Shown: positions 1,440 through 57,560 of the stretch, in pieces
Layout of the letters: each line of letters starts with the position of its first letter
Position numbering within the stretch: the stretch's first letter is position 1
DNA from: Escherichia phage SP27
Direction: 5' to 3' (one strand)
Length of the DNA: 64,000 nt
Sequence record: LC494302.1
Notes under the pieces: model-generated
Told to the model about the DNA's origin: nothing
Seen by the model: only the letters and a program-made list of their open reading frames with translations
Database searches by the model: none
Program-made: the position numbers and the translations under genes

Positions 1440-1470
1440 GTGGGACAAAAAACCAATAACTGATATAATT
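1440..1470 (+). promoter_or_regulatory. Sigma70-like promoter (GTGGGACA -35-like, 16-nt spacer, TATAAT)
   Basis: AGTGGGACAA…TGATATAAT; the same motif recurs at 20548-20577. Confidence 0.4.
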
Positions 1471-17677: not shown

Positions 17678-19003
17678 ATGACTACTCAAAACGATATCCT
17701 GAACGTTAAACTGACTCCAAAGAAAGCTAAAGAAGCAATGGCACTAGCTGACATGATTCAAGATAGCCTGATGATTTGGGGTAGCCCAGGTATCGGTAAG
17801 TCTGCAATCGCTCGTCAATACGCTGATGAAAATTACCCACTGCGTAAAGATAACGTAGCTAAAATCGAGTTCATGAAACAACAAATCGAAGCTGACCCTG
17901 AAAATGCTGATCAGCTACGCCGTGAACTGGCTGCATTTGAAGCAAAACTAATCGACCAAGATACTAACTTTATCGATTTCCGTTTGTCTCAAATCGAACC
18001 AAGTGACCTTCGCGGTATTCCAGTACCAGAGAAGCTTTTCCGTAAAACTGACGGTTCTCTTCTGAAAGAATCTGAGCTTGCCGAAGCAAAAGATTATGTA
18101 GCTGAAACTGCGGTAGTATGGGCTGCACCTAAAGTTCTGAAATTGTCCGAAGATTGGAAAGGTGTTATTCTGTTTGACGAAATTAACTCTGCAATGCCTA
18201 TTGTTCAGGCAGCGTCTTATCAGCTAATCCTCGACCGTTGTGTTGGTGAGATGAAGCTACCTAAGACTGCACTGATTCTTGCAGCAGGTAACCGTGAAAC
18301 TGATGGCGGTGTAACTTTCTCTCTTGCTACACCACTGCGTGACCGTATGACTCACATTGAGATGATTCCTTATCATCAAGATTGGATTAACGATTATGCG
18401 ATTGCAAAACGTTTGAACCCAGCAACTGTTGCGTTCATCAACAACACTGGTTCTAAGTACTTTAACACACTTAGTCCACAAGATCCTTCTCACAGTGGTG
18501 GTACTTCTCCACGTTCATGGGAAGCAGTAGCACGCTACGAAGATCTCAAGAAAACTAAGACAATTGATAAAGAAGTGTTCCGTGCAATGATTGCTGGTCG
18601 TGTTGGTGAAGGTGTTGCAACTGAATACATTGAGTACGTTGAGAACGTTGCTAAACTACCAGATACTATGTCTATTCTGTCTGGTGAAATCAAAGAAATC
18701 GACGCAACGCTGGATATTTCTGCGAACTACTTTATCACTCTGAACTTGGTTTATAAAATTATCGACCTGTTCAATGAGAAGCAAGAACAACGTCTACCAG
18801 TGGAAGAATGGGGTAAACTGTGTAACAACTTCATCACCTTCCTAGACCATAACTTCTCTGCAACTCAAGCAGAACTGGCAGTACTGGCAATTCGTACCAT
18901 CACGCTTCATAAGGTTGCGATTTCCATTAAAGATGTACCAGCGTTTAAAGATTTCATCGCTAAGTACTCTGAACTTGTACGTAAAGCACGCTCTCTTGGC
19001 TAA
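17678..19003 (+). CDS. MoxR-like AAA+ ATPase (CobS-like)
   Basis: Walker A GSPGIGKS, Walker B VILFDEINSA, MoxR-type FRLSQIEPSDLRG segment; CTG/CGT-rich codon usage unlike neighbouring genes. Confidence 0.8.
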   Translation: MTTQNDILNVKLTPKKAKEAMALADMIQDSLMIWGSPGIGKSAIARQYADENYPLRKDNVAKIEFMKQQIEADPENADQLRRELAAFEAKLIDQDTNFIDFRLSQIEPSDLRGIPVPEKLFRKTDGSLLKESELAEAKDYVAETAVVWAAPKVLKLSEDWKGVILFDEINSAMPIVQAASYQLILDRCVGEMKLPKTALILAAGNRETDGGVTFSLATPLRDRMTHIEMIPYHQDWINDYAIAKRLNPATVAFINNTGSKYFNTLSPQDPSHSGGTSPRSWEAVARYEDLKKTKTIDKEVFRAMIAGRVGEGVATEYIEYVENVAKLPDTMSILSGEIKEIDATLDISANYFITLNLVYKIIDLFNEKQEQRLPVEEWGKLCNNFITFLDHNFSATQAELAVLAIRTITLHKVAISIKDVPAFKDFIAKYSELVRKARSLG

Positions 19004-20547: not shown

Positions 20548-20577
20548 GTGGGACAACTTATAAAAATATGATATAAT
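20548..20577 (+). promoter_or_regulatory. Sigma70-like promoter (GTGGGACA-16-TATAAT), second copy of the motif at 1440
   Basis: AAGTGGGACAACTTATAAAAATATGATATAAT. Confidence 0.4.
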
Positions 20578-32546: not shown

Positions 32547-34688
32547 TTATGGTAGGGTTATGTAAGTTACGGGTTGGGCAGCTTTTAATGCTGCACCAGC
32601 GGCAGTTGCTGTTATGATAGGATCTGCAATATCAATTCTATATACGTTGTTTACAACATACACTGCACGAGTTATATACGTTCTCAAATCACCACCATTT
32701 TCACCAGCACCGGATATAATGATCTCAGTACCAGCAGCTTTTGCATATTGGTTTTCACCCCATGACACACCCAATGCTTCTATGTATGTTTGTCCTGCTA
32801 CCGTTTGTCTAATTGTGTCATATTTTCCGAAAAAAGAACCACCAACAGTTACAATATATTTTCCACCCGATTGTTTATGAATAATCGTGCCTTCAGAGAA
32901 ATAGCGTCCCCCAGGAAAAGTATCGTATGGAATATAATATTGCTCAACTACAGGTATCAGTACTGGGCCACGGTGTCCTGTACCATCGATTGCAGTTGTA
33001 ACTTTAAAGTTATTAGATGATTGGTCTATTCTGTCTACATACATTTTAGAAAAACTATATTTTGAAACATTACAATCATCTTGAACAACACAGTTAGTCC
33101 AATTAGTATAAGTATATTTAGAGCGAGTATAGATACCACCACCTTCGCCTTCGGTAGAGAGGTGTTGACCAATTACATCTAATTCTTTAGTTCTAATATC
33201 ACTAAATTTAGATGATGATGGCAAACCACGCCAAAGGATTTTAGAACAGGTGATATTGCTCAATTCTGTATTATTTAACCAATTATCAGAACCGGAAGTA
33301 TAAACAAGTATAGAAGACTCTGGAATATAGAGATTAGAAATTTTAAAGTTTCTAGGTGGTCCAGCAAAACGACCAGAAGTTACACCCCAGTTTATTGAAA
33401 CCATTCTATTTGTGATAGAAGGATCATTAAGCAAATGACCAGTCAACCCATCAATAATGAATTCTTTCGAACCATAAGTTATAACACCAGCAGTGGTTAA
33501 TCCAGTACCAACAGAAACTAAAGATGATGGATAAACTTCATTATTAAGTATTTTAAAGTCCATTCCTAATTCAACGTGGATACATTGTCTAACATTATAT
33601 AGTCTGTTATTTTTAATAACAAAGTTTCTGACATATTGTGTATCTGGTGCATCTAAACCATAAGGACCAGAACCAGCAACGCCAATACCAATGCCCCAGT
33701 TTGAAAGTGGGATTGGAGCGTTAGAACCATCAACGTTTTCAATTACGTTTCCTTCAATCACAAAACCATCAGGATAATGTGAGTTAATTACGTTTAGTTC
33801 AATTGCATCACCATATATATCATGTATGTGGTTATATGAATATCTACCAACCTTCATTTTCTCACCAGTACCTTGTTGAAGAACACCATACTTACATTGG
33901 GTCATTTCATTAAAGCAAAAATCTATTGTTCCTGGTTGTGTCATACCTTGCATTAAAAATGCAGCAGTACTTGTGATGTTTATAAATTTATTAAAATAAA
34001 ACTTACCATCGCCACCGAAGAATTTTAAATAACATCCAGTAAGTGTTGCAAATTGTATTTGGGAATTAATAACGGATACCATAGTACCACCATTACCAGT
34101 AATAGTTCCCCCAAACCAAGTTACATCTTCCAGGTATATTGCAGTTTTGATACGGTAATTACCACCAGCCTGAATTTGGATTTTATTTTCTTTAGCATAA
34201 GCAGCACATAAATTTACAGCAGCAGTGTCATCAGTTTCGCCATCACCTTTAGCACCAAATTCTTCTGGTGTTATATAAAACTGGGCCTGTTGAACTGTAC
34301 CTCCAGTAATAAGTCCGATGAAATCGCCACCATTTTTACTGGATAGAACTTTTTTATTAATGTATAATGATTTTACCCATGTACCATTACTTTTTGCAAA
34401 AATATCAACAATACCATCTTCATCAATTTGAAAATACGTATTATTGTTCTTTCCTACATCATCGGTAGGGGGTACAACACCAAATAATGCATTAGGGTTA
34501 TCTTCAAGATATTTTACGTTAACTGCTGAATTAGGGTCAGATGAAGTTCCTACCTTCAGTGGTAGGAACTGTTCTCCTAGATAATCTTTTATAGAAACTG
34601 AATCATTGATAAAATTTATTGAAGCACCTTTTTTCCCCAATATGAATTTGGGCTGCATAGTTCCTTCAAAATTAGAAAATACTGCCAT
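32547..34688 (-). CDS. Tailspike-like protein with the shared N-terminal module and a beta-helix-like body (candidate depolymerase)
   Basis: N-terminus MAVFSNFEGTMQPKFILGKKGASI; body has repeated N/G-rich short strands; RBS GGGAGG. Confidence 0.55.
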   Translation of the reverse strand: MAVFSNFEGTMQPKFILGKKGASINFINDSVSIKDYLGEQFLPLKVGTSSDPNSAVNVKYLEDNPNALFGVVPPTDDVGKNNNTYFQIDEDGIVDIFAKSNGTWVKSLYINKKVLSSKNGGDFIGLITGGTVQQAQFYITPEEFGAKGDGETDDTAAVNLCAAYAKENKIQIQAGGNYRIKTAIYLEDVTWFGGTITGNGGTMVSVINSQIQFATLTGCYLKFFGGDGKFYFNKFINITSTAAFLMQGMTQPGTIDFCFNEMTQCKYGVLQQGTGEKMKVGRYSYNHIHDIYGDAIELNVINSHYPDGFVIEGNVIENVDGSNAPIPLSNWGIGIGVAGSGPYGLDAPDTQYVRNFVIKNNRLYNVRQCIHVELGMDFKILNNEVYPSSLVSVGTGLTTAGVITYGSKEFIIDGLTGHLLNDPSITNRMVSINWGVTSGRFAGPPRNFKISNLYIPESSILVYTSGSDNWLNNTELSNITCSKILWRGLPSSSKFSDIRTKELDVIGQHLSTEGEGGGIYTRSKYTYTNWTNCVVQDDCNVSKYSFSKMYVDRIDQSSNNFKVTTAIDGTGHRGPVLIPVVEQYYIPYDTFPGGRYFSEGTIIHKQSGGKYIVTVGGSFFGKYDTIRQTVAGQTYIEALGVSWGENQYAKAAGTEIIISGAGENGGDLRTYITRAVYVVNNVYRIDIADPIITATAAGAALKAAQPVTYITLP

Positions 34689-34702
34689 TATGACATCCTC
34701 CC

Positions 34703-35830
34703 TTAAATATTATCTTGAATCGGTTGGATAGGAGCTTGCCATGAAAGAGTACAAATAATTTCCATTTTTCCATAAGGACTGTTGTTAACAGAATCGTTGA
34801 ATACACATGAAATAATTTCATCAACATCGGATGCTGCATGATTAGTTTCATTAACAATAAAACGCATCTGACGATTGATATCAAAGTAGGAAGTTGGTGC
34901 AATTACAGTCCCACCAATATCTTCTTGTGCTTCACCACCAAAACGTACAAACATATCAGTTACAGGAAGAGAATAAGGTTGTATAACGTTTACATCAATA
35001 TTAGAAACTACATATCCAGCAGGACACGTACCAATAACTAATAGTGCGTTAGTCCATGAGCTATCTATTGTATTTCTAATAGAAATTGTATCTTTACCTG
35101 GTGCACCTGGTTCGCCTTGTATACCTTGAATACCTTGCTGACCTTCTTTACCACGGAATAGAATACCCTCACTCCACTCTTTTGAAGGAGGGGTAGTTGT
35201 AGTTACTTCATCAACATAATATAGTTTTCCATCAGTGTTGTTATAAAAACAATAATCAACTGGAAGATTTTCAATACTTGGAAATTGATCACCACTGCTA
35301 TCAATATGGAAACGACCACGCGGACCTTGTTCACCACGGAAAGGTATACCATCACTCCAAGTAGCAGTTACACTTTGATAGAAATAAAGTTTACCATCTT
35401 GAGTATTATAAAATGTATAGTTATCAAAAAGACCAGTTGTTGGGAAAGTAGTTCCAGCACTATCAATGTGGAACGGCTTACCCGCTTCACCCGTATCACC
35501 TTTACCAAACTCAACACTAATCCATGTACTTGTCGGATCTTGTGCATCATTTGATTTAAAGTATAGAGTACTGGTATTGTTAGCCAAGCTTAAGTAGCAC
35601 CACCCAAGTGGTTCACCAACTTTAAATTGTTCGGAAGGAATTTCAAAACCAATCTCATTAGGATAAAAGTTTTTACCATTCTCGCCATTCTGTCCTACAA
35701 CAAGACCTAAATCTTGAATTGTGTTATCTGCATAGGTTACAATTAAATGCCCAGCACCATTAATAACTAGACTTTTGATGCCGGAGTTATTACATGAACC
35801 ACTGGACCCATTGTTAAATGAAATTGTCAT
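34703..35830 (-). CDS. Tail fiber-like protein with a collagen-like G-X-Y stretch and an internal duplication
   Basis: GKEGQQGIQGIQGEPGAPGKD; FHIDSAGTTFP…YNTQDGKLYFY repeated as FHIDSSGDQFP…YNNTDGKLYYV; ATG 35830 with AAGGGA RBS. Confidence 0.55.
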   Translation of the reverse strand: MTISFNNGSSGSCNNSGIKSLVINGAGHLIVTYADNTIQDLGLVVGQNGENGKNFYPNEIGFEIPSEQFKVGEPLGWCYLSLANNTSTLYFKSNDAQDPTSTWISVEFGKGDTGEAGKPFHIDSAGTTFPTTGLFDNYTFYNTQDGKLYFYQSVTATWSDGIPFRGEQGPRGRFHIDSSGDQFPSIENLPVDYCFYNNTDGKLYYVDEVTTTTPPSKEWSEGILFRGKEGQQGIQGIQGEPGAPGKDTISIRNTIDSSWTNALLVIGTCPAGYVVSNIDVNVIQPYSLPVTDMFVRFGGEAQEDIGGTVIAPTSYFDINRQMRFIVNETNHAASDVDEIISCVFNDSVNNSPYGKMEIICTLSWQAPIQPIQDNI

Positions 35831-40020: not shown

Positions 40021-41510
40021 TCTGTGTCCTTATGTATGCGATAAACAGTATTAGGTTTAACTGCGTCATGTAATGGAACTTTGTTATCACTATTTACAAA
40101 CTGTGTAAGTGCTAAGTCTGCACCTTCCCACGGTTTTCTTCCACCATAATCAAAAATAACCCATGAATTCTTAGTTGCATTGAATTCCCATAACGTAACT
40201 GGAGTATAATCGGTGCGATAGAAATAGTCACCATCTACTGCATCAGTTGGGAACATATTTCCTTCAGGGACTGTACCTCGTGCTGGTGGAATTTTAGGAC
40301 GATAATCTTGTTGCGAATCAATATTACCATATACACAATTGGACGTGAATGGTTCATTGACATAAGTTACCTTTGGTTCCCCCCACTTGTCATCATTATA
40401 CTGATAAATGTGTGGTTCTTTATAAAAAATACAAAAATCTTCCACATCTTCTGGTGGAACATCACTGGTAGTATATTCTACATCACAATTTAACCATTTT
40501 TTAGCACTTTTATCATATTGATACAACGTATAACCTGTCACATCTGCGTCATTTTCTTTAAAGAAGAAGTCACCATCCATTGGTTTTCTGGGAAAGATGG
40601 TTCCACGCTTGACTTCCACAGAAATCCATGTATCATTAACAAACTCTTTGAGTACTGGGTATGTTTTTTTCAAAAAATACATTCCATCGGCAGGTTCTTC
40701 TGGAAAATCATAACCGTTAAGCATATATTTTGATAAATCTACTGTATCAGGTCGATCATCATACAAATGTTCATTTGTATAATGAATATAGGGTACTTCA
40801 TCATCAGCTTGCATGATGATACGGTTCATGATATCCATTTCATTGCCATAGTTACTGTTTTCCGACGAACCATCATCGGTATTTCCATTACCATTATTAG
40901 GGTCATCTGGATTATCAGGATAATTATTGTTACCGAGTAAATCGGAGTACTCAGGTGAGTCGGTTAGCGGTTTAACTCTAAGTTTATAAATGTGATGTTG
41001 CCACGTAACCGAGTATCCCTCAGATGTACGAAATGCATCTTGGACGACATAGAAGCGGTTTAGACCTGTATCTTTACCCAATACATCAAAATCACGTAAA
41101 TTTGGTAGTTCTATCACATCCCCTGGCATGATTTTTCTACCTAAACGCTGCATCATTGTATTATAATGGATTGTGATGTCCATAGTGTTGAAATTAAAGA
41201 ACAATCCTGGGATTTTCAAGTCTGGAGTTGCTTCTTGAACTTGATAGACACAACTAAGTGTGATAGCTTCAAGGTTGTAGTTTCTGTTTGGTGTGTCACC
41301 AAAAATTAAATCGCCAATACTTGACACAACTGATCCTGAAGATGTATAATCACCTCCATAGGATAAGTCAGTGTTGTCAGCAACTTGTTTTGGACCGACA
41401 TATGCATAAAGCCACATGTCAACTCCACCAATGTTGTATTGTTCAGCAATGGCAGAATCAATGAACTTGTAATCATTGGTTCTACCTTTTTTCCACATTC
41501 TATATGTCAT
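40017..41510 (-). CDS. Structural protein with C-terminal DGxYF(F/Y) repeats
   Basis: ATG 41510 with GGAGAC RBS (the track's 41522 start is a TTG); PADGMYFLKK / PMDGDFFFKEN / AVDGDYFYRTD repeats; N-rich linker. Confidence 0.45.
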   Translation of the reverse strand: MTYRMWKKGRTNDYKFIDSAIAEQYNIGGVDMWLYAYVGPKQVADNTDLSYGGDYTSSGSVVSSIGDLIFGDTPNRNYNLEAITLSCVYQVQEATPDLKIPGLFFNFNTMDITIHYNTMMQRLGRKIMPGDVIELPNLRDFDVLGKDTGLNRFYVVQDAFRTSEGYSVTWQHHIYKLRVKPLTDSPEYSDLLGNNNYPDNPDDPNNGNGNTDDGSSENSNYGNEMDIMNRIIMQADDEVPYIHYTNEHLYDDRPDTVDLSKYMLNGYDFPEEPADGMYFLKKTYPVLKEFVNDTWISVEVKRGTIFPRKPMDGDFFFKENDADVTGYTLYQYDKSAKKWLNCDVEYTTSDVPPEDVEDFCIFYKEPHIYQYNDDKWGEPKVTYVNEPFTSNCVYGNIDSQQDYRPKIPPARGTVPEGNMFPTDAVDGDYFYRTDYTPVTLWEFNATKNSWVIFDYGGRKPWEGADLALTQFVNSDNKVPLHDAVKPNTVYRIHKDTE

Positions 41511-41552
41511 GATTGTCTCCAAAATAAATCGGGTATATCTTTATTTACCTTG

Positions 41553-41580
41553 TAGACAAACCGTAAGAATGTGATATAAT
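41553..41580 (+). promoter_or_regulatory. Sigma70-like promoter with extended -10 upstream of the ClpA-like gene
   Basis: TAGACA-16-TGTGATATAAT; the ATGTGATATAATG core is shared with the promoters at 5060 and 17400. Confidence 0.5.
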
Positions 41581-41620
41581 GTTTATTAATTAGAGTGACG
41601 TGAATCACATAGGAGAATAC

Positions 41621-43909
41621 ATGAATCTTACTCAATTGTTCAAAAAAAGCGACGAACTGGCAACATCTCTAGGTCATACATTCTTGACTATTGACCACGT
41701 AAGTGCCACAGTACTGACTATTGATAGCATCAAGAACGTATTTGAAGATATGAACATTGATGCAGACAAACTGCACAACCGCCTGATGAACTATCTTAAA
41801 AATACAACAGTTCCACATGCACCAAAAAGTGTTAAAGATGAAGACGCGAATCGAACTTCACTTCTAGTGAATCGCGTTGTACATGAGCTTTCTAAAAAAT
41901 CAGTTATTGAACAACTAAAAAGTGATGATTTTTCGATTGATGCATATTTTGTTCTATTCGAATGTCTGTCTTTCCCTAACACAGCACTAGAAGCTGCGTT
42001 AAAAGAAGAAGGTGTTAGCTGTACTGAAGCTGCACGTGCATTACAGAAACACGTTGAGTCACTTGATAAAGGTATCAACTTACAAAGTATTAATGACGAA
42101 CCGATTGGAGATAAAAAAGTGGCCCAACAGCAGCAATCATCTAAACAAAAAGGTTTGGAAGACTATACAACGAATCTAACTGCTCTTGCAAAAGAAGGCA
42201 AACTAGATCCTATGATTGGTCGCCAGAAAGAATTGTCTGCATTGATTGAGACTCTTGCTCGCAAAACCAAAAAGAATGCTATTCTCACTGGTGAAGCTGG
42301 TGTAGGTAAAACACAAATCATCGACGGGCTTGCACAAGCTATTGCTGATGGTAACGTACCTGAACACCTGAAAGACGTTGAAATTCTTTCACTAAATGTT
42401 GGTGCATTGACTGCTGGTACTAAGTATCGTGGTGAATTTGAAGAACGCATCGACAATTTGCTAAAAGAACTAAAGAAACGTGAAAATACTATTGTTTTCA
42501 TTGATGAAATTCATATTATGGTTGGGGCTGGTTCCGCAAGTAATGGTTCTATGGACATGAGCAATATGCTTAAGCCAGCACTTTCACGTGGTGAGATTCG
42601 TGTAATTGGTGCAACAACATATGATGAATATCGTAAAAATATCGAGAAAGATAGTGCATTAACTCGTCGTTTTATGAAAATTGACGTAGTTGAGCCGACA
42701 ATTGATGAAACTCGTGCAATTGTTAATGGTTTGAAACCAACGTATGAAAAATTCCATAATGTTGAGTTCACATCTGATGCAATGGATGCTGTAATTTCTC
42801 TCAGTGATAAATTCCTGAAGAATAAGCACTTCCCAGATAAAGCAATTGATCTAATGGATGCTGCTGCGGCTAAAGTTCGTTCACGTGACAACAATAGTAA
42901 GCTAATTACTGCCAATTTGATTCAAGAAGTTGTTGCTGGTATTGCCAATTTGGATATCAACGTGGTTGCATGTACTGAAAGTGATCGTATGCGTAATCTA
43001 CCAGATGCACTACGCTCACGTGTATACGGTCAAGAGGAAGCTATTCAAAAATTAGTTGATAACGTGATGGTAGCTCGTGCAGGACTGCGTGACAAATCTA
43101 GTGTTCAGGGTGCATTTATGTTTGTTGGACCATCTGGTACTGGTAAAACAGAAATTACCAAAGCATTAGCAGACGCAACTGGTGCGGAACTCATTCGCTT
43201 TGATATGTCAGAATTTTCTCAAGAACATACTGTTTCTAAACTAATTGGTTCACCTCCAGGTTATGTTGGTCATGATTCTGGTAACGGTTTACTGTTGGAT
43301 AAAATTGAGCAGTTCCCTAATGCAGTACTGTTACTTGATGAAATTGAAAAAGCAGATCGTAAAGTACTACTAACCTTCCTACAGGTTTTGGATGAAGGTC
43401 GTCTGACTGGTTCTCAAGGTAAAACTGTATATTTTAATAACGTAACTGTTATTATGACTACAAACCTTGGTGCGGCTGATTCAACAAAGCGTAGCATTGG
43501 TATGAGCGGTAGTGACACTGCACAGGACAAGGCAATTAAAGCATTCTTGCCACCAGAGTTTATTAACCGTATTGATAGTATCGTTACGTTTAAAGACCTA
43601 AGCAGTGAAGCTATTGACAGCATCATTGATAAGTTCATGGGTGGTTTGAATGAACAAGTCAAAGACCGTAATGTTAAAGTTACATTAACAAAAGCTGCAC
43701 GTGAATGGCTTGCGAAAAATGGGGTAAAAGTTGGTATGGGTGCACGTCCAATGAAACGTACCATTGAACAAAACATTCGTGTGCCACTAGCTAAAGAAAT
43801 GTTGTGTGGTTCACTTGTGAATGGTGGTAACATTACATTTGATGTTATTGATGGTAAAATCGGTATTAAGCCGAAACGTACCAAAGCTGTAGATAAAGCA
43901 CTAGTATAA
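41621..43909 (+). CDS. clpA: ClpA-like AAA+ unfoldase (Clp protease ATP-binding subunit homolog)
   Basis: Two AAA+ modules ([24 protein letters not shown]), [17 protein letters not shown] loop at the ClpA IGL position; ATG 41621 with AGGAGA RBS. Confidence 0.85.
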
Positions 43910-43911
43910 AA

Positions 43912-43947
43912 AAAGAAAAGGAGAGCATAATGCTCTCCTTTTTTTAT
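43912..43947. terminator. Bidirectional rho-independent terminator between clpA-like and the giant gene
   Basis: A-rich-GGAGAGCA-TAA-TGCTCTCC-TTTTTTTATT. Confidence 0.65.
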
Positions 43948-57459: not shown

Positions 57460-57525
57460 AATTTATTCCTTTAAATCAGTAAAGTACTAGTTCAGTACTG
57501 GGAATTATATATAGAAATATTTATT

Positions 57526-57557
57526 CAAAAAGAAAAGCACTCCGAAGAGTGCTTTTG
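57526..57557 (-). terminator. Rho-independent terminator (minus strand) after the gp25-like gene
   Basis: AAAGCACTC-CGAA-GAGTGCTTT with an A-rich plus-strand tract upstream. Confidence 0.5.
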
Positions 57558-57560
57558 TAA

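What the first reader, a model, noticed from the sequence alone, without database searches (positions are those of the whole stretch)
41553..43909. Phage-encoded ClpA homolog under an early promoter
This is a full two-ring ClpA-type unfoldase with an IGM tripeptide at the position of the ClpP-docking IGL loop, so it could dock onto host ClpP. It has its own extended -10 promoter and relatively host-like codons. It may redirect host proteolysis toward defence or host proteins, or protect phage proteins.
Basis: partly seen in the sequence, partly recalled or inferred. Interest (0 to 1): 0.55.

Follow-up and report, generated by a model that had tools for sequence, protein, structure and literature searches.

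The report
Jumbo-phage ClpA unfoldase gene, already annotated
This is a real, intact ClpA-type protein-unfolding motor encoded by a 121Q-like jumbo coliphage, already annotated and noted in the literature, and it most likely works with the phage's own ClpP protease and ClpS-like adaptor rather than simply borrowing the host's ClpP.

Summary
Window 41621-43909 (+) encodes a 762-aa ClpA-family protein, 42% identical to E. coli ClpA. Both AAA+ rings, the pore loops and the arginine fingers are intact. It has a Clp N-domain fold, and IGM sits exactly where ClpA has its IGL docking tripeptide. The gene has its own extended -10 promoter and a bidirectional terminator. The window is about 99.9% identical to phage 121Q, where this gene is gp581 'ClpA-like'. 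Two papers already note ClpA in Rak2-like jumbo phages, so the feature is not new.

The interpretation needs correcting. The 121Q genome encodes its own ClpP (gp464, catalytic triad intact) and a ClpS-like protein (gp48). Both occur in the same Rak2-like genera as ClpA. clpA and clpP share one phage promoter class, [AG]GAC[AG]-N13-TGnTATAAT, also found upstream of replication genes and the late sigma factor gene. That suggests middle rather than immediate-early timing. Across 114 phage ClpA clusters the ATPase motifs are invariant, but the docking tripeptide is canonical in only 68%. The phage ClpP pocket is remodelled. This favours a phage-private ClpAP pair; host ClpP docking is not excluded. 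The biological role is untested. Interest is modest.

The parts
41553..41580 (+). clpA promoter: -35-region box (T)AGACA at 41553-41558, a 13-nt spacer after AGACA, and the extended -10 TGATATAAT at 41572-41580
   Evidence: The consensus scan scores it 11 of 12 with the TG. It belongs to the 23-copy class [AG]GAC[AG]-N13-TGnTATAAT, all on the + strand, against about 0.4 expected. TGnTATAAT is conserved upstream of the orthologues. The CBB orthologue Porf_235 is listed in that paper's Table S6.
41611..41615 (+). Ribosome-binding site AGGAG, 5 nt before the ATG
   Evidence: Read directly from the sequence.
41621..43909 (+). clpA-like coding sequence, 762 aa (121Q gp581 orthologue)
41621..42070 (+). 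N-domain (aa 1-150): eight-helix Clp/Hsp100 N-domain fold, only 20% identical to the E. coli ClpA N-domain
   Evidence: Pfam Clp_N scores 24.2 bits against a cut-off of 20.7. The AlphaFold2 model has pLDDT 80.6 and eight helices. Foldseek matches the ClpA N-domain 1r6o_B at TM 0.73 and ClpC N-domains.
42155..42910 (+). D1 AAA+ module (aa 179-430): Walker A G224-T231 (K230), pore-1 KYR 268-270, Walker B D295-E296, paired Arg residues
   Evidence: Alignments. These residues are invariant in 114 phage-clade clusters, except the pore residues (K113/R1, Y103/F11).
42911..43840 (+). D2 AAA+ module plus small domain (aa 431-740): Walker A 503-510 (K509), pore-1 GYVG 547-550, Walker B D573-E574, sensor-2 GAR
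43496..43504 (+). IGM tripeptide (aa 626-628) at the position of the ClpA IGL ClpP-docking loop
   Evidence: Aligned with I617-G618-L619 of E. coli ClpA. The role of the loop in ClpAP is described in bioRxiv 10.1101/820209. Variability across the phage clade is shown.
43916..43945 (.). Bidirectional intrinsic terminator between clpA (+) and the 3333-aa virion protein gene (-)
   Evidence: A 12-bp hairpin AAAAGGAGAGCATAATGCTCTCCTTTT with T runs on both strands.

Best explanation
The gene encodes the ATPase subunit of a phage-encoded Clp protease.

Inferred by homology with E. coli ClpAP: the protein forms a two-ring hexamer. It grips substrates with its KYR (D1) and GYVG (D2) pore loops, unfolds them using ATP, and threads them into a ClpP chamber. 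It docks on ClpP through the IGM loop.

Inferred from gene content, co-occurrence and shared promoter class: the most likely ClpP partner is the phage's own ClpP (121Q gp464). Substrate choice is probably set by the strongly diverged N-domain, possibly together with the phage ClpS-like protein (gp48). Cross-docking on host ClpP is possible and not excluded.

Shown here: intact motifs, domain architecture, N-domain fold, a promoter and a terminator, conserved gene order, and co-occurrence with phage clpP and the clpS-like gene.

Weakest inference: the promoter class is shared with genes annotated as replication genes and the late sigma factor gene. The module is therefore probably switched on in a middle phase. 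It would then degrade or remodel selected host or early phage proteins, or do quality control during the long jumbo-phage cycle.
For: - ClpA is the best match in the PDB (E = 2.4e-180, one stretch) and in NCBIfam (TIGR02639, 754.7 bits).
- All ATPase, arginine-finger and sensor residues are invariant, and the pore-loop aromatic residue is kept (Tyr, or Phe in 11 clusters), across 114 phage-clade clusters.
- The N-domain fold is confirmed.
- The tripeptide IGM sits at the docking position.
- 121Q gp464 is a genuine ClpP. Pfam CLP_protease gives E = 4e-41. Its best NCBIfam hits are cellular ClpP models, not the head-maturation model. The Ser/His/Asp triad is kept in six phage orthologues.
- The phage has a separate T4 gp21-like capsid protease, gp601. 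ClpP is therefore not needed for head maturation.
- ClpA, ClpP and the ClpS-like protein are found in the same genera in nearly the same numbers: Escherichia 32/33/33, Klebsiella 11/10/10, Erwinia 8/8/8.
- clpA and clpP carry the same promoter class.
- Neither Clp protein appears among the 62 virion proteins found by mass spectrometry in phAPEC6.
- The docking tripeptide is relaxed in the phage clade: 77 of 114 are canonical, with variants such as MSM, MNM, IGG and IGA. The phage ClpP pocket is changed at L114G, Y60T/V/S, F82S/Y/C/N and F49W/Y. The pocket residues are those listed in 10.1101/820209. This is easier to explain if the partner is a co-evolving phage ClpP than if it is the conserved host ClpP.
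Against: - There is no direct evidence of any ClpA-ClpP interaction.
- The two genes are about 84 kb apart, so they are not an operon.
- The phage ClpP pocket has lost several hydrophobic contact residues (F82S, Y60T, L114G in 121Q). It might therefore bind no IGL-type loop at all.
- With only six ClpA/ClpP pairs I saw no clean covariation between loop and pocket.
- The ClpS-like protein is a marginal Pfam hit (24.7 bits against a cut-off of 23). Three residues of the E. coli N-degron pocket are changed: N34D, D36P and H66N. That list of pocket residues is from my own recollection.
- CBB ClpP gave one peptide in virion mass spectrometry.
- Timing and substrates are unknown.
Confidence: 0.55

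Rival explanations
1. Host-ClpP hijack. The phage ClpA docks mainly on E. coli ClpP through the IGM loop, competes with host ClpA and ClpX, and redirects host proteolysis.
For: IGM is a canonical hydrophobic-Gly-hydrophobic tripeptide at the right position. E. coli ClpP accepts loops with different flanks: ClpA has SIGLIHQ and ClpX has GIGFGAT, and the phage's SIGMSGS resembles the ClpX flank. A sigma-70-like promoter allows transcription by host RNA polymerase.
Against: The phage carries its own catalytically intact ClpP, co-inherited with ClpA and driven by the same promoter class. Loop residues that contact E. coli ClpP are changed to S, G and S at I620, H621 and Q622. In sister lineages on enterobacterial hosts the tripeptide drifts to MNM, MSM, IGG or IGA. 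That is hard to reconcile with a conserved host pocket.
Confidence: 0.2
2. ClpP-independent unfoldase or chaperone for virion assembly. It might handle the neighbouring 3333-aa virion protein or other tail and baseplate components.
For: The position is conserved inside the tail/baseplate module, next to the giant structural gene, in RaK2, CBB, BF and PHA46. In PA5oct it lies near a large tail protein gene and directly after a true DnaJ gene. Iyer et al. suggested a translocase or assembly role. About a third of the clade has a non-canonical docking tripeptide.
Against: The helix-loop-helix insertion carrying the tripeptide is retained, and 121Q has a canonical tripeptide. The gene is transcribed divergently from its late-gene neighbours, from a promoter class annotated mostly upstream of non-structural genes. 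A phage ClpP co-occurs throughout. Conserved gene order may simply reflect the conserved core genome.
Confidence: 0.17
3. A dispensable or decaying passenger gene with no role in infection.
For: No functional data exist for any phage ClpA in the searched literature.
Against: The catalytic residues are invariant across 114 clusters that diverge down to 54% identity. Gene order and promoter are conserved across several genera.
Confidence: 0.03

Closest known systems
E. coli ClpA of the ClpAPS protease (PDB 1ksf, 6w1z, 7uiv)
   Same: Same architecture: N-domain, D1, D2, no middle domain. It aligns end to end. The KYR and GYVG pore loops, Walker motifs, arginine fingers and sensor-2 are the same. 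There is a hydrophobic-Gly-hydrophobic docking tripeptide at the same loop position.
   Different: Overall identity is only 42%, and 20% in the N-domain. The score is below the NCBIfam ClpA equivalog cut-off, 754.7 against 993.15. The loop flank differs, IGMSGS against IGLIHQ. It is phage-encoded and expressed from a phage-specific promoter class.
ClpA homologues already annotated in Rak2-like jumbo phages (121Q gp581, RaK2 ORF069, GAP32, CBB_235, phAPEC6 gp246c) and in PA5oct and Atu_ph07
   Same: The window gene is the same protein, 100% identical to 121Q gp581. Neighbours and promoter are the same.
   Different: Nothing differs in substance. The literature only lists these genes and speculates (PMC6102473, PMC7824862). 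I found no functional study.
Phage SPO1 Gp53, an adaptor-like protein that redirects host ClpCP (PMC6873191)
   Different: SPO1 supplies only a small adaptor-like protein acting on the host enzyme. Here the phage supplies the unfoldase itself, a ClpP and a ClpS-like protein.
ClpB / Hsp104 / ClpV disaggregases
   Same: Two AAA+ rings and a Clp N-domain. These families score second best.
   Different: ClpB and Hsp104 carry a middle domain, consistent with their matches splitting into two stretches. From my knowledge of these families, not tested here, none of the three has a ClpP-docking loop. The phage protein aligns with ClpA end to end without a middle-domain insertion, and it has the loop.

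Membership tests
ClpA (Hsp100/Clp class I unfoldase that partners ClpP) | Two AAA+ modules with intact Walker A/B, arginine fingers and sensor-2 | tested here: met
   These residues are invariant in 114 phage-clade clusters.
ClpA (Hsp100/Clp class I unfoldase that partners ClpP) | Pore-1 loops KYR (D1) and GYVG (D2) | tested here: met
   KYR at 268-270 and GYVG at 547-550. The loops are defined in PMC9663308.
ClpA (Hsp100/Clp class I unfoldase that partners ClpP) | N-terminal Clp N-domain fold | tested here: met
   Pfam Clp_N scores 24.2 against 20.7. The AlphaFold2 model has pLDDT 80.6. Foldseek gives TM 0.73 to the ClpA N-domain 1r6o_B.
ClpA (Hsp100/Clp class I unfoldase that partners ClpP) | No ClpB/ClpC-type middle coiled-coil domain | tested here: met
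   A single continuous alignment to ClpA, while ClpB and ClpC hits split into two stretches. There is no insertion relative to ClpA.
ClpA (Hsp100/Clp class I unfoldase that partners ClpP) | Hydrophobic-Gly-hydrophobic tripeptide on the D2 helix-loop-helix that docks into ClpP pockets | tested here: met
   IGM aligns with I617-G618-L619. Caveat: only 77 of 114 clade members are canonical.
ClpA (Hsp100/Clp class I unfoldase that partners ClpP) | Score above the curated NCBIfam ClpA equivalog cut-off (TIGR02639) | tested here: not met
   754.7 bits against a cut-off of 993.15. It is still the best-scoring family. This is a divergent member, not an equivalog by NCBI's rule.
ClpA (Hsp100/Clp class I unfoldase that partners ClpP) | Physical binding to ClpP and ATP-dependent degradation of substrates | not testable with these tools
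   Needs biochemistry or a multimer structure prediction.
ClpA (Hsp100/Clp class I unfoldase that partners ClpP) | Binding of ClpS to the N-domain | not tested
   A phage ClpS-like protein exists. I did not evaluate the interface residues.
Immediate-early phage genes (host sigma-70 promoter class) | Promoter of the class that drives the early gene block, and early transcripts | tested here: inconclusive
   The promoter is sigma-70-like with an extended -10. It falls in the [AG]GAC[AG] class, which also lies upstream of genes annotated as replication genes and of the late sigma factor gene (CBB Table S6). No transcriptome data were available.

The most novel reading that the evidence does not exclude
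The Rak2-like jumbo phages carry an orthogonal, phage-private ClpAP(S) protease. The phage ClpA docks only on the phage ClpP through a co-evolved loop-pocket pair. On one side is a relaxed tripeptide. On the other is a pocket with L114G, Y60T and F82S and a conserved C-terminal extension ...LVKRRGGVEEWV. The pair would be insulated from host ClpA, ClpX and ClpP. A ClpS-like adaptor with an altered degron pocket would aim it at specific host (possibly defence) or early phage proteins at the switch to replication and late gene expression.
Probability: 0.3. Interest if true: 0.6.

Novelty: already known. Interest (0 to 1): 0.3.

Why it matters
Most known phage interventions in host proteolysis use small inhibitors or adaptors. 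A phage that brings its own unfoldase, peptidase and adaptor could control protein turnover independently of the host. If the phage ClpA-ClpP interface proves private, it would be a natural example of an orthogonal AAA+ protease. It would also be a handle for finding which host or phage proteins must be removed during jumbo-phage infection. As it stands, the gene's presence is already documented, so the value lies in the follow-up experiments and not in the discovery.

Tried and rejected
- Temporal expression data. The PA5oct omics paper has no supplementary text held and does not mention Clp. No transcriptome for any Rak2-like phage turned up.
- Functional studies of phage-encoded ClpA or ClpP. 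Five literature searches found only genome descriptions and one comparative review.
- A conserved DnaJ link. I tested whether the 'DnaJ-like' gene next to 121Q's ClpS-like gene is homologous to the true DnaJ next to PA5oct clpA. It is not (BLASTP E = 0.34). 121Q gp49 is a KTSC-domain protein. No such link was found in 121Q.
- Recent capture from the host. Rejected. Identity to host ClpA is 42%, GC3 is 0.26 against 0.55, and the codon fit to the phage is 0.87.
- ClpP gp464 as the head-maturation protease, as RefSeq labels it. This is unlikely. The genome has a T4 gp21-like protease (gp601). gp464 scores far better on cellular ClpP models than on the head-maturation model.
- gp473 (a degenerate ClpP-like protein with a signal-peptide-like N-terminus) and gp475 (HslV-like, very weak hit) as partners. 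The hits are too weak to use.
- Loop-pocket covariation over six ClpA/ClpP pairs. No clean pattern emerged and the sample is too small.
- ClpA as a virion component. It is absent from the phAPEC6 virion proteome.

Full report
**What the window is.** The 2.6 kb around the finding is 99.9% identical to Escherichia phage 121Q. It is 99.5-99.8% identical to about 18 further records, mostly Asteriusvirus jumbo coliphages plus four Salmonella-phage records. [quoted passage not shown] In 121Q it is gp581. The window is not 121Q itself. The coordinate offset changes along it, and about 740 bp present in 121Q are missing. I fetched the whole 121Q genome in pieces to see the genomic context.

**Checking the observation.** The ORF runs from ATG 41621 to 43909 on the + strand and encodes 762 aa. 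AGGAG lies 5 nt upstream of the ATG. Pfam finds the expected ClpA parts: AAA, AAA_lid_9, AAA_2 and ClpB_D2-small. A Clp_N hit appears when the N-terminal 210 aa are scanned alone. The best solved relative is E. coli ClpA (E = 2.4e-180). The match is one stretch over residues 17-741. ClpB, ClpC and Hsp104 hits split into two stretches, as expected if the phage protein lacks their middle domain. NCBIfam ranks ClpA first (TIGR02639, 754.7 bits), but this is below the equivalog cut-off of 993.

All catalytic and pore residues are in place:
- Walker A: K230 and K509
- Walker B: D295-E296 and D573-E574
- Pore loops: KYR at 268-270 and GYVG at 547-550
- Arginine fingers and sensor-2

IGM (aa 626-628) aligns exactly with I617-G618-L619. 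In the ClpAP cryo-EM structures these residues insert into the ClpP hydrophobic pocket.

The N-domain is only 20% identical to that of E. coli ClpA. An AlphaFold2 model built on 51 sequences has mean pLDDT 80.6 and eight helices. It matches ClpA and ClpC N-domains, with TM 0.73 to 1r6o_B.

**Transcription signals.** The scan finds TAGACA-16-TGaTATAAT at 41553-41580, scoring 11 of 12 with the extended -10 TG. TGnTATAAT sits at the same distance upstream of the orthologues in RaK2, CBB, BF and PHA46, although the surrounding sequence has diverged. A 12-bp hairpin at 43916-43942 has T runs on both strands. It separates clpA from the convergent 3333-aa virion protein gene. The gene is therefore a single-gene unit set against the direction of its late structural neighbours.

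Genome-wide, 121Q has 23 copies of [AG]GAC[AG]-N13-TGnTATAAT, all on the + strand and in one fixed register. Markov simulations give about 0.4. By position against the annotation, members of this class lie upstream of several genes:
- clpA
- the phage clpP gene (gp464; the -10 ends 34 nt before its ATG)
- the ssDNA-binding protein gene (two copies)
- the primase gene
- an exonuclease gene
- the gp55-like late sigma factor gene

The CBB paper describes the homologous class as 'divergent RpoD-like' (TGAAACG...TATAAT). It associates the class with DNA-synthesis genes and the late sigma gene. It keeps that class apart from the classical RpoD-like promoters of the presumed early block. Its Table S6 lists Porf_235, the clpA promoter. 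So 'own extended -10 promoter' is right. 'Early' is doubtful, and a middle class is more likely. No transcriptome was available to settle this.

**Codon usage.** The gene's relative codon usage correlates with a small E. coli reference set at 0.33. This is the 96th percentile among 139 phage ORFs of 200 aa or more. However, GC3 is 0.26 against 0.55 for E. coli, and the gene fits the phage's own usage at 0.87. 'Relatively host-like' is true only in a weak sense. The gene is an old resident of the phage lineage.

Three other 121Q genes lie outside the window:
- gp464 is a ClpP.
- gp48 is a ClpS-like protein.
- gp473 and gp475 are very weak ClpP-like and HslV-like hits.

gp464 is a genuine ClpP. 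Pfam gives E = 4e-41, and its best PDB and NCBIfam hits are cellular ClpPs. The Ser97-His122-Asp171 triad is kept in 121Q, RaK2, PHA46, Hallingskeid, CBB and BF. The genome also has a T4 gp21-like capsid protease, gp601. The RefSeq label 'head maturation protease' for gp464 is therefore probably wrong.

tblastn finds ClpA, ClpP and the ClpS-like protein in the same genera in nearly equal numbers:

| Genus | ClpA | ClpP | ClpS-like |
|---|---|---|---|
| Escherichia | 32 | 33 | 33 |
| Klebsiella | 11 | 10 | 10 |
| Salmonella | 10 | 8 | 8 |
| Erwinia | 8 | 8 | 8 |

ClpA and ClpP each also hit 11 Pseudomonas-phage records. The ClpS-like protein has no hit outside the Rak2-like genera.

Neither Clp protein is among the 62 proteins detected in phAPEC6 virions. 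CBB ClpP gave a single peptide.

**Docking interface.** A search of the large protein collection returns a distinct phage clade of 114 clusters at 54% identity or more. There is then a gap, and the next hits are at 47% or less. In that clade every Walker, arginine-finger and sensor residue is invariant, and the pore-loop aromatic residue is always kept. The tripeptide, by contrast, is one of the more variable spots of D2:

| Tripeptide type | Clusters |
|---|---|
| hydrophobic-Gly-hydrophobic | 77 |
| hydrophobic-[Asn/Ser]-hydrophobic (MNM, MSM...) | 17 |
| hydrophobic-Gly-[Ala/Gly] (IGA, IGG...) | 15 |
| other | 5 |

In 121Q the flank that contacts E. coli ClpP (I620, H621, Q622) reads S, G, S. 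On the other side, several of the twelve E. coli pocket residues listed in the cryo-EM paper differ in the phage ClpPs:
- L114 is Gly in all six.
- Y60 is Thr, Val or Ser.
- F82 is Ser, Tyr, Cys or Asn.
- F49 is Trp or Tyr.

All six phage ClpPs also carry a conserved C-terminal extension of about 20 aa ending in ...VKRRGGVEEWV or a close variant. It follows directly after the strand that forms part of the pocket.

A docking loop that drifts while the motor is frozen, opposite a remodelled pocket in a co-inherited phage ClpP, fits a phage-private pair better than docking on the conserved host ClpP. This is inference only. With six pairs I saw no clean covariation. E. coli ClpP is known to accept both the ClpA loop (SIGLIHQ) and the ClpX loop (GIGFGAT), and the phage loop SIGMSGS resembles the latter.

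**Gene order.** The arrangement 'sheath-completion gene, structural gene | clpA | giant structural gene' is conserved in RaK2, CBB, BF, PHA46 and phAPEC6. In PA5oct, clpA follows a true DnaJ gene and precedes tail genes. Attai et al. report the same DnaJ adjacency in Atu_ph07. This keeps an assembly-chaperone role alive as a rival. It may also only reflect a conserved core genome.

**Verdict.** The feature is real and intact, but it is already annotated and already remarked on in the literature. [quoted passage not shown] PMC7824862 suggests a translocase or assembly role.

The best-supported reading is a phage-encoded ClpAP(S)-like protease expressed from a middle-type promoter class (confidence about 0.55). 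Hijack of host ClpP (0.2) and a ClpP-independent assembly chaperone (0.17) are the main rivals. These roles are not mutually exclusive.

What this analysis adds to the record:
- the shared promoter class of clpA and clpP;
- the relaxed docking tripeptide;
- the remodelled pocket and C-terminal extension of the phage ClpP.

These points make the 'private protease' idea testable. They do not make the finding novel.

Noticed in passing
window 41523-41620: This 98-nt divergent intergenic region seems to hold two promoters back to back. On the - strand, about 30-40 nt upstream of the structural gene that starts at 41510, the sequence reads GTAAATAAAG. The CBB, BF and PHA46 orthologues have ATAAATA there, which is the late-promoter motif reported for CBB and GAP32. 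It abuts the clpA -35-region box.
   Followed up: partly
window 1443-1469, 20551-20577, 41554-41580 (and 20 more sites in 121Q): A sharply defined promoter class, [AG]GAC[AG]-N13-TGnTATAAT, has 23 copies in 121Q, all on the + strand and in one register. About 0.4 are expected by chance. By position it lies upstream of genes annotated as replication genes, the late sigma factor gene, clpP and clpA. The fixed upstream box suggests a phage-encoded activator or sigma factor.
   Followed up: partly
121Q genome 98727, 109308, 110590, 112758 (outside the window): A second repeated promoter-like element reads GGGTTGACTTCGGTCAGCCCTTTTTGCTATAAT. A hairpin (GGGTTGAC...GTCAGCCC) spans the -35 hexamer and spacer. 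It occurs four times upstream of ORFs.
   Followed up: no
window 17678-19003 (+): The orthologue of 121Q gp563 'ATPase' has unusually high GC for this phage (0.42). It has the second most E. coli-like codon usage among ORFs of 200 aa or more. The phAPEC6 ATPase gp265c, probably its orthologue (49.5 kDa; not checked by sequence), was detected in virions.
   Followed up: no
121Q 214364-215059 (gp464, outside the window) and its orthologues L017-L021: The phage ClpPs share a conserved C-terminal extension of about 20 aa (NExGxxLVKRRGGVEEWV). It is absent from E. coli ClpP, the only cellular ClpP I aligned. It follows directly after the strand that lines the unfoldase-docking pocket.
   Followed up: partly
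121Q 218420-219028 (gp473) and 219356-219952 (gp475), outside the window: gp473 is a very divergent ClpP-like protein with a signal-peptide-like N-terminus (MKRLWLEVVQAVMLLMLINFPASAG). gp475 is a barely detectable HslV-like protein. They sit 3-5 kb downstream of clpP.
   Followed up: partly
window 57460-57560: The HNH endonuclease gene that 121Q carries between the baseplate wedge gene and the gp25-like gene (gp584, 765 nt) is absent here. The window therefore comes from a close relative of 121Q, not from 121Q itself.
   Followed up: partly
121Q 34461-35006 (gp48, outside the window): The ClpS-like protein is 181 aa against 106 aa in E. coli, with extensions at both ends. Three residues of the E. 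coli N-degron pocket are changed (N34D, D36P, H66N; the pocket list is from my own recollection). It evolves faster than ClpA or ClpP, at 35-64% identity across the clade.
   Followed up: partly
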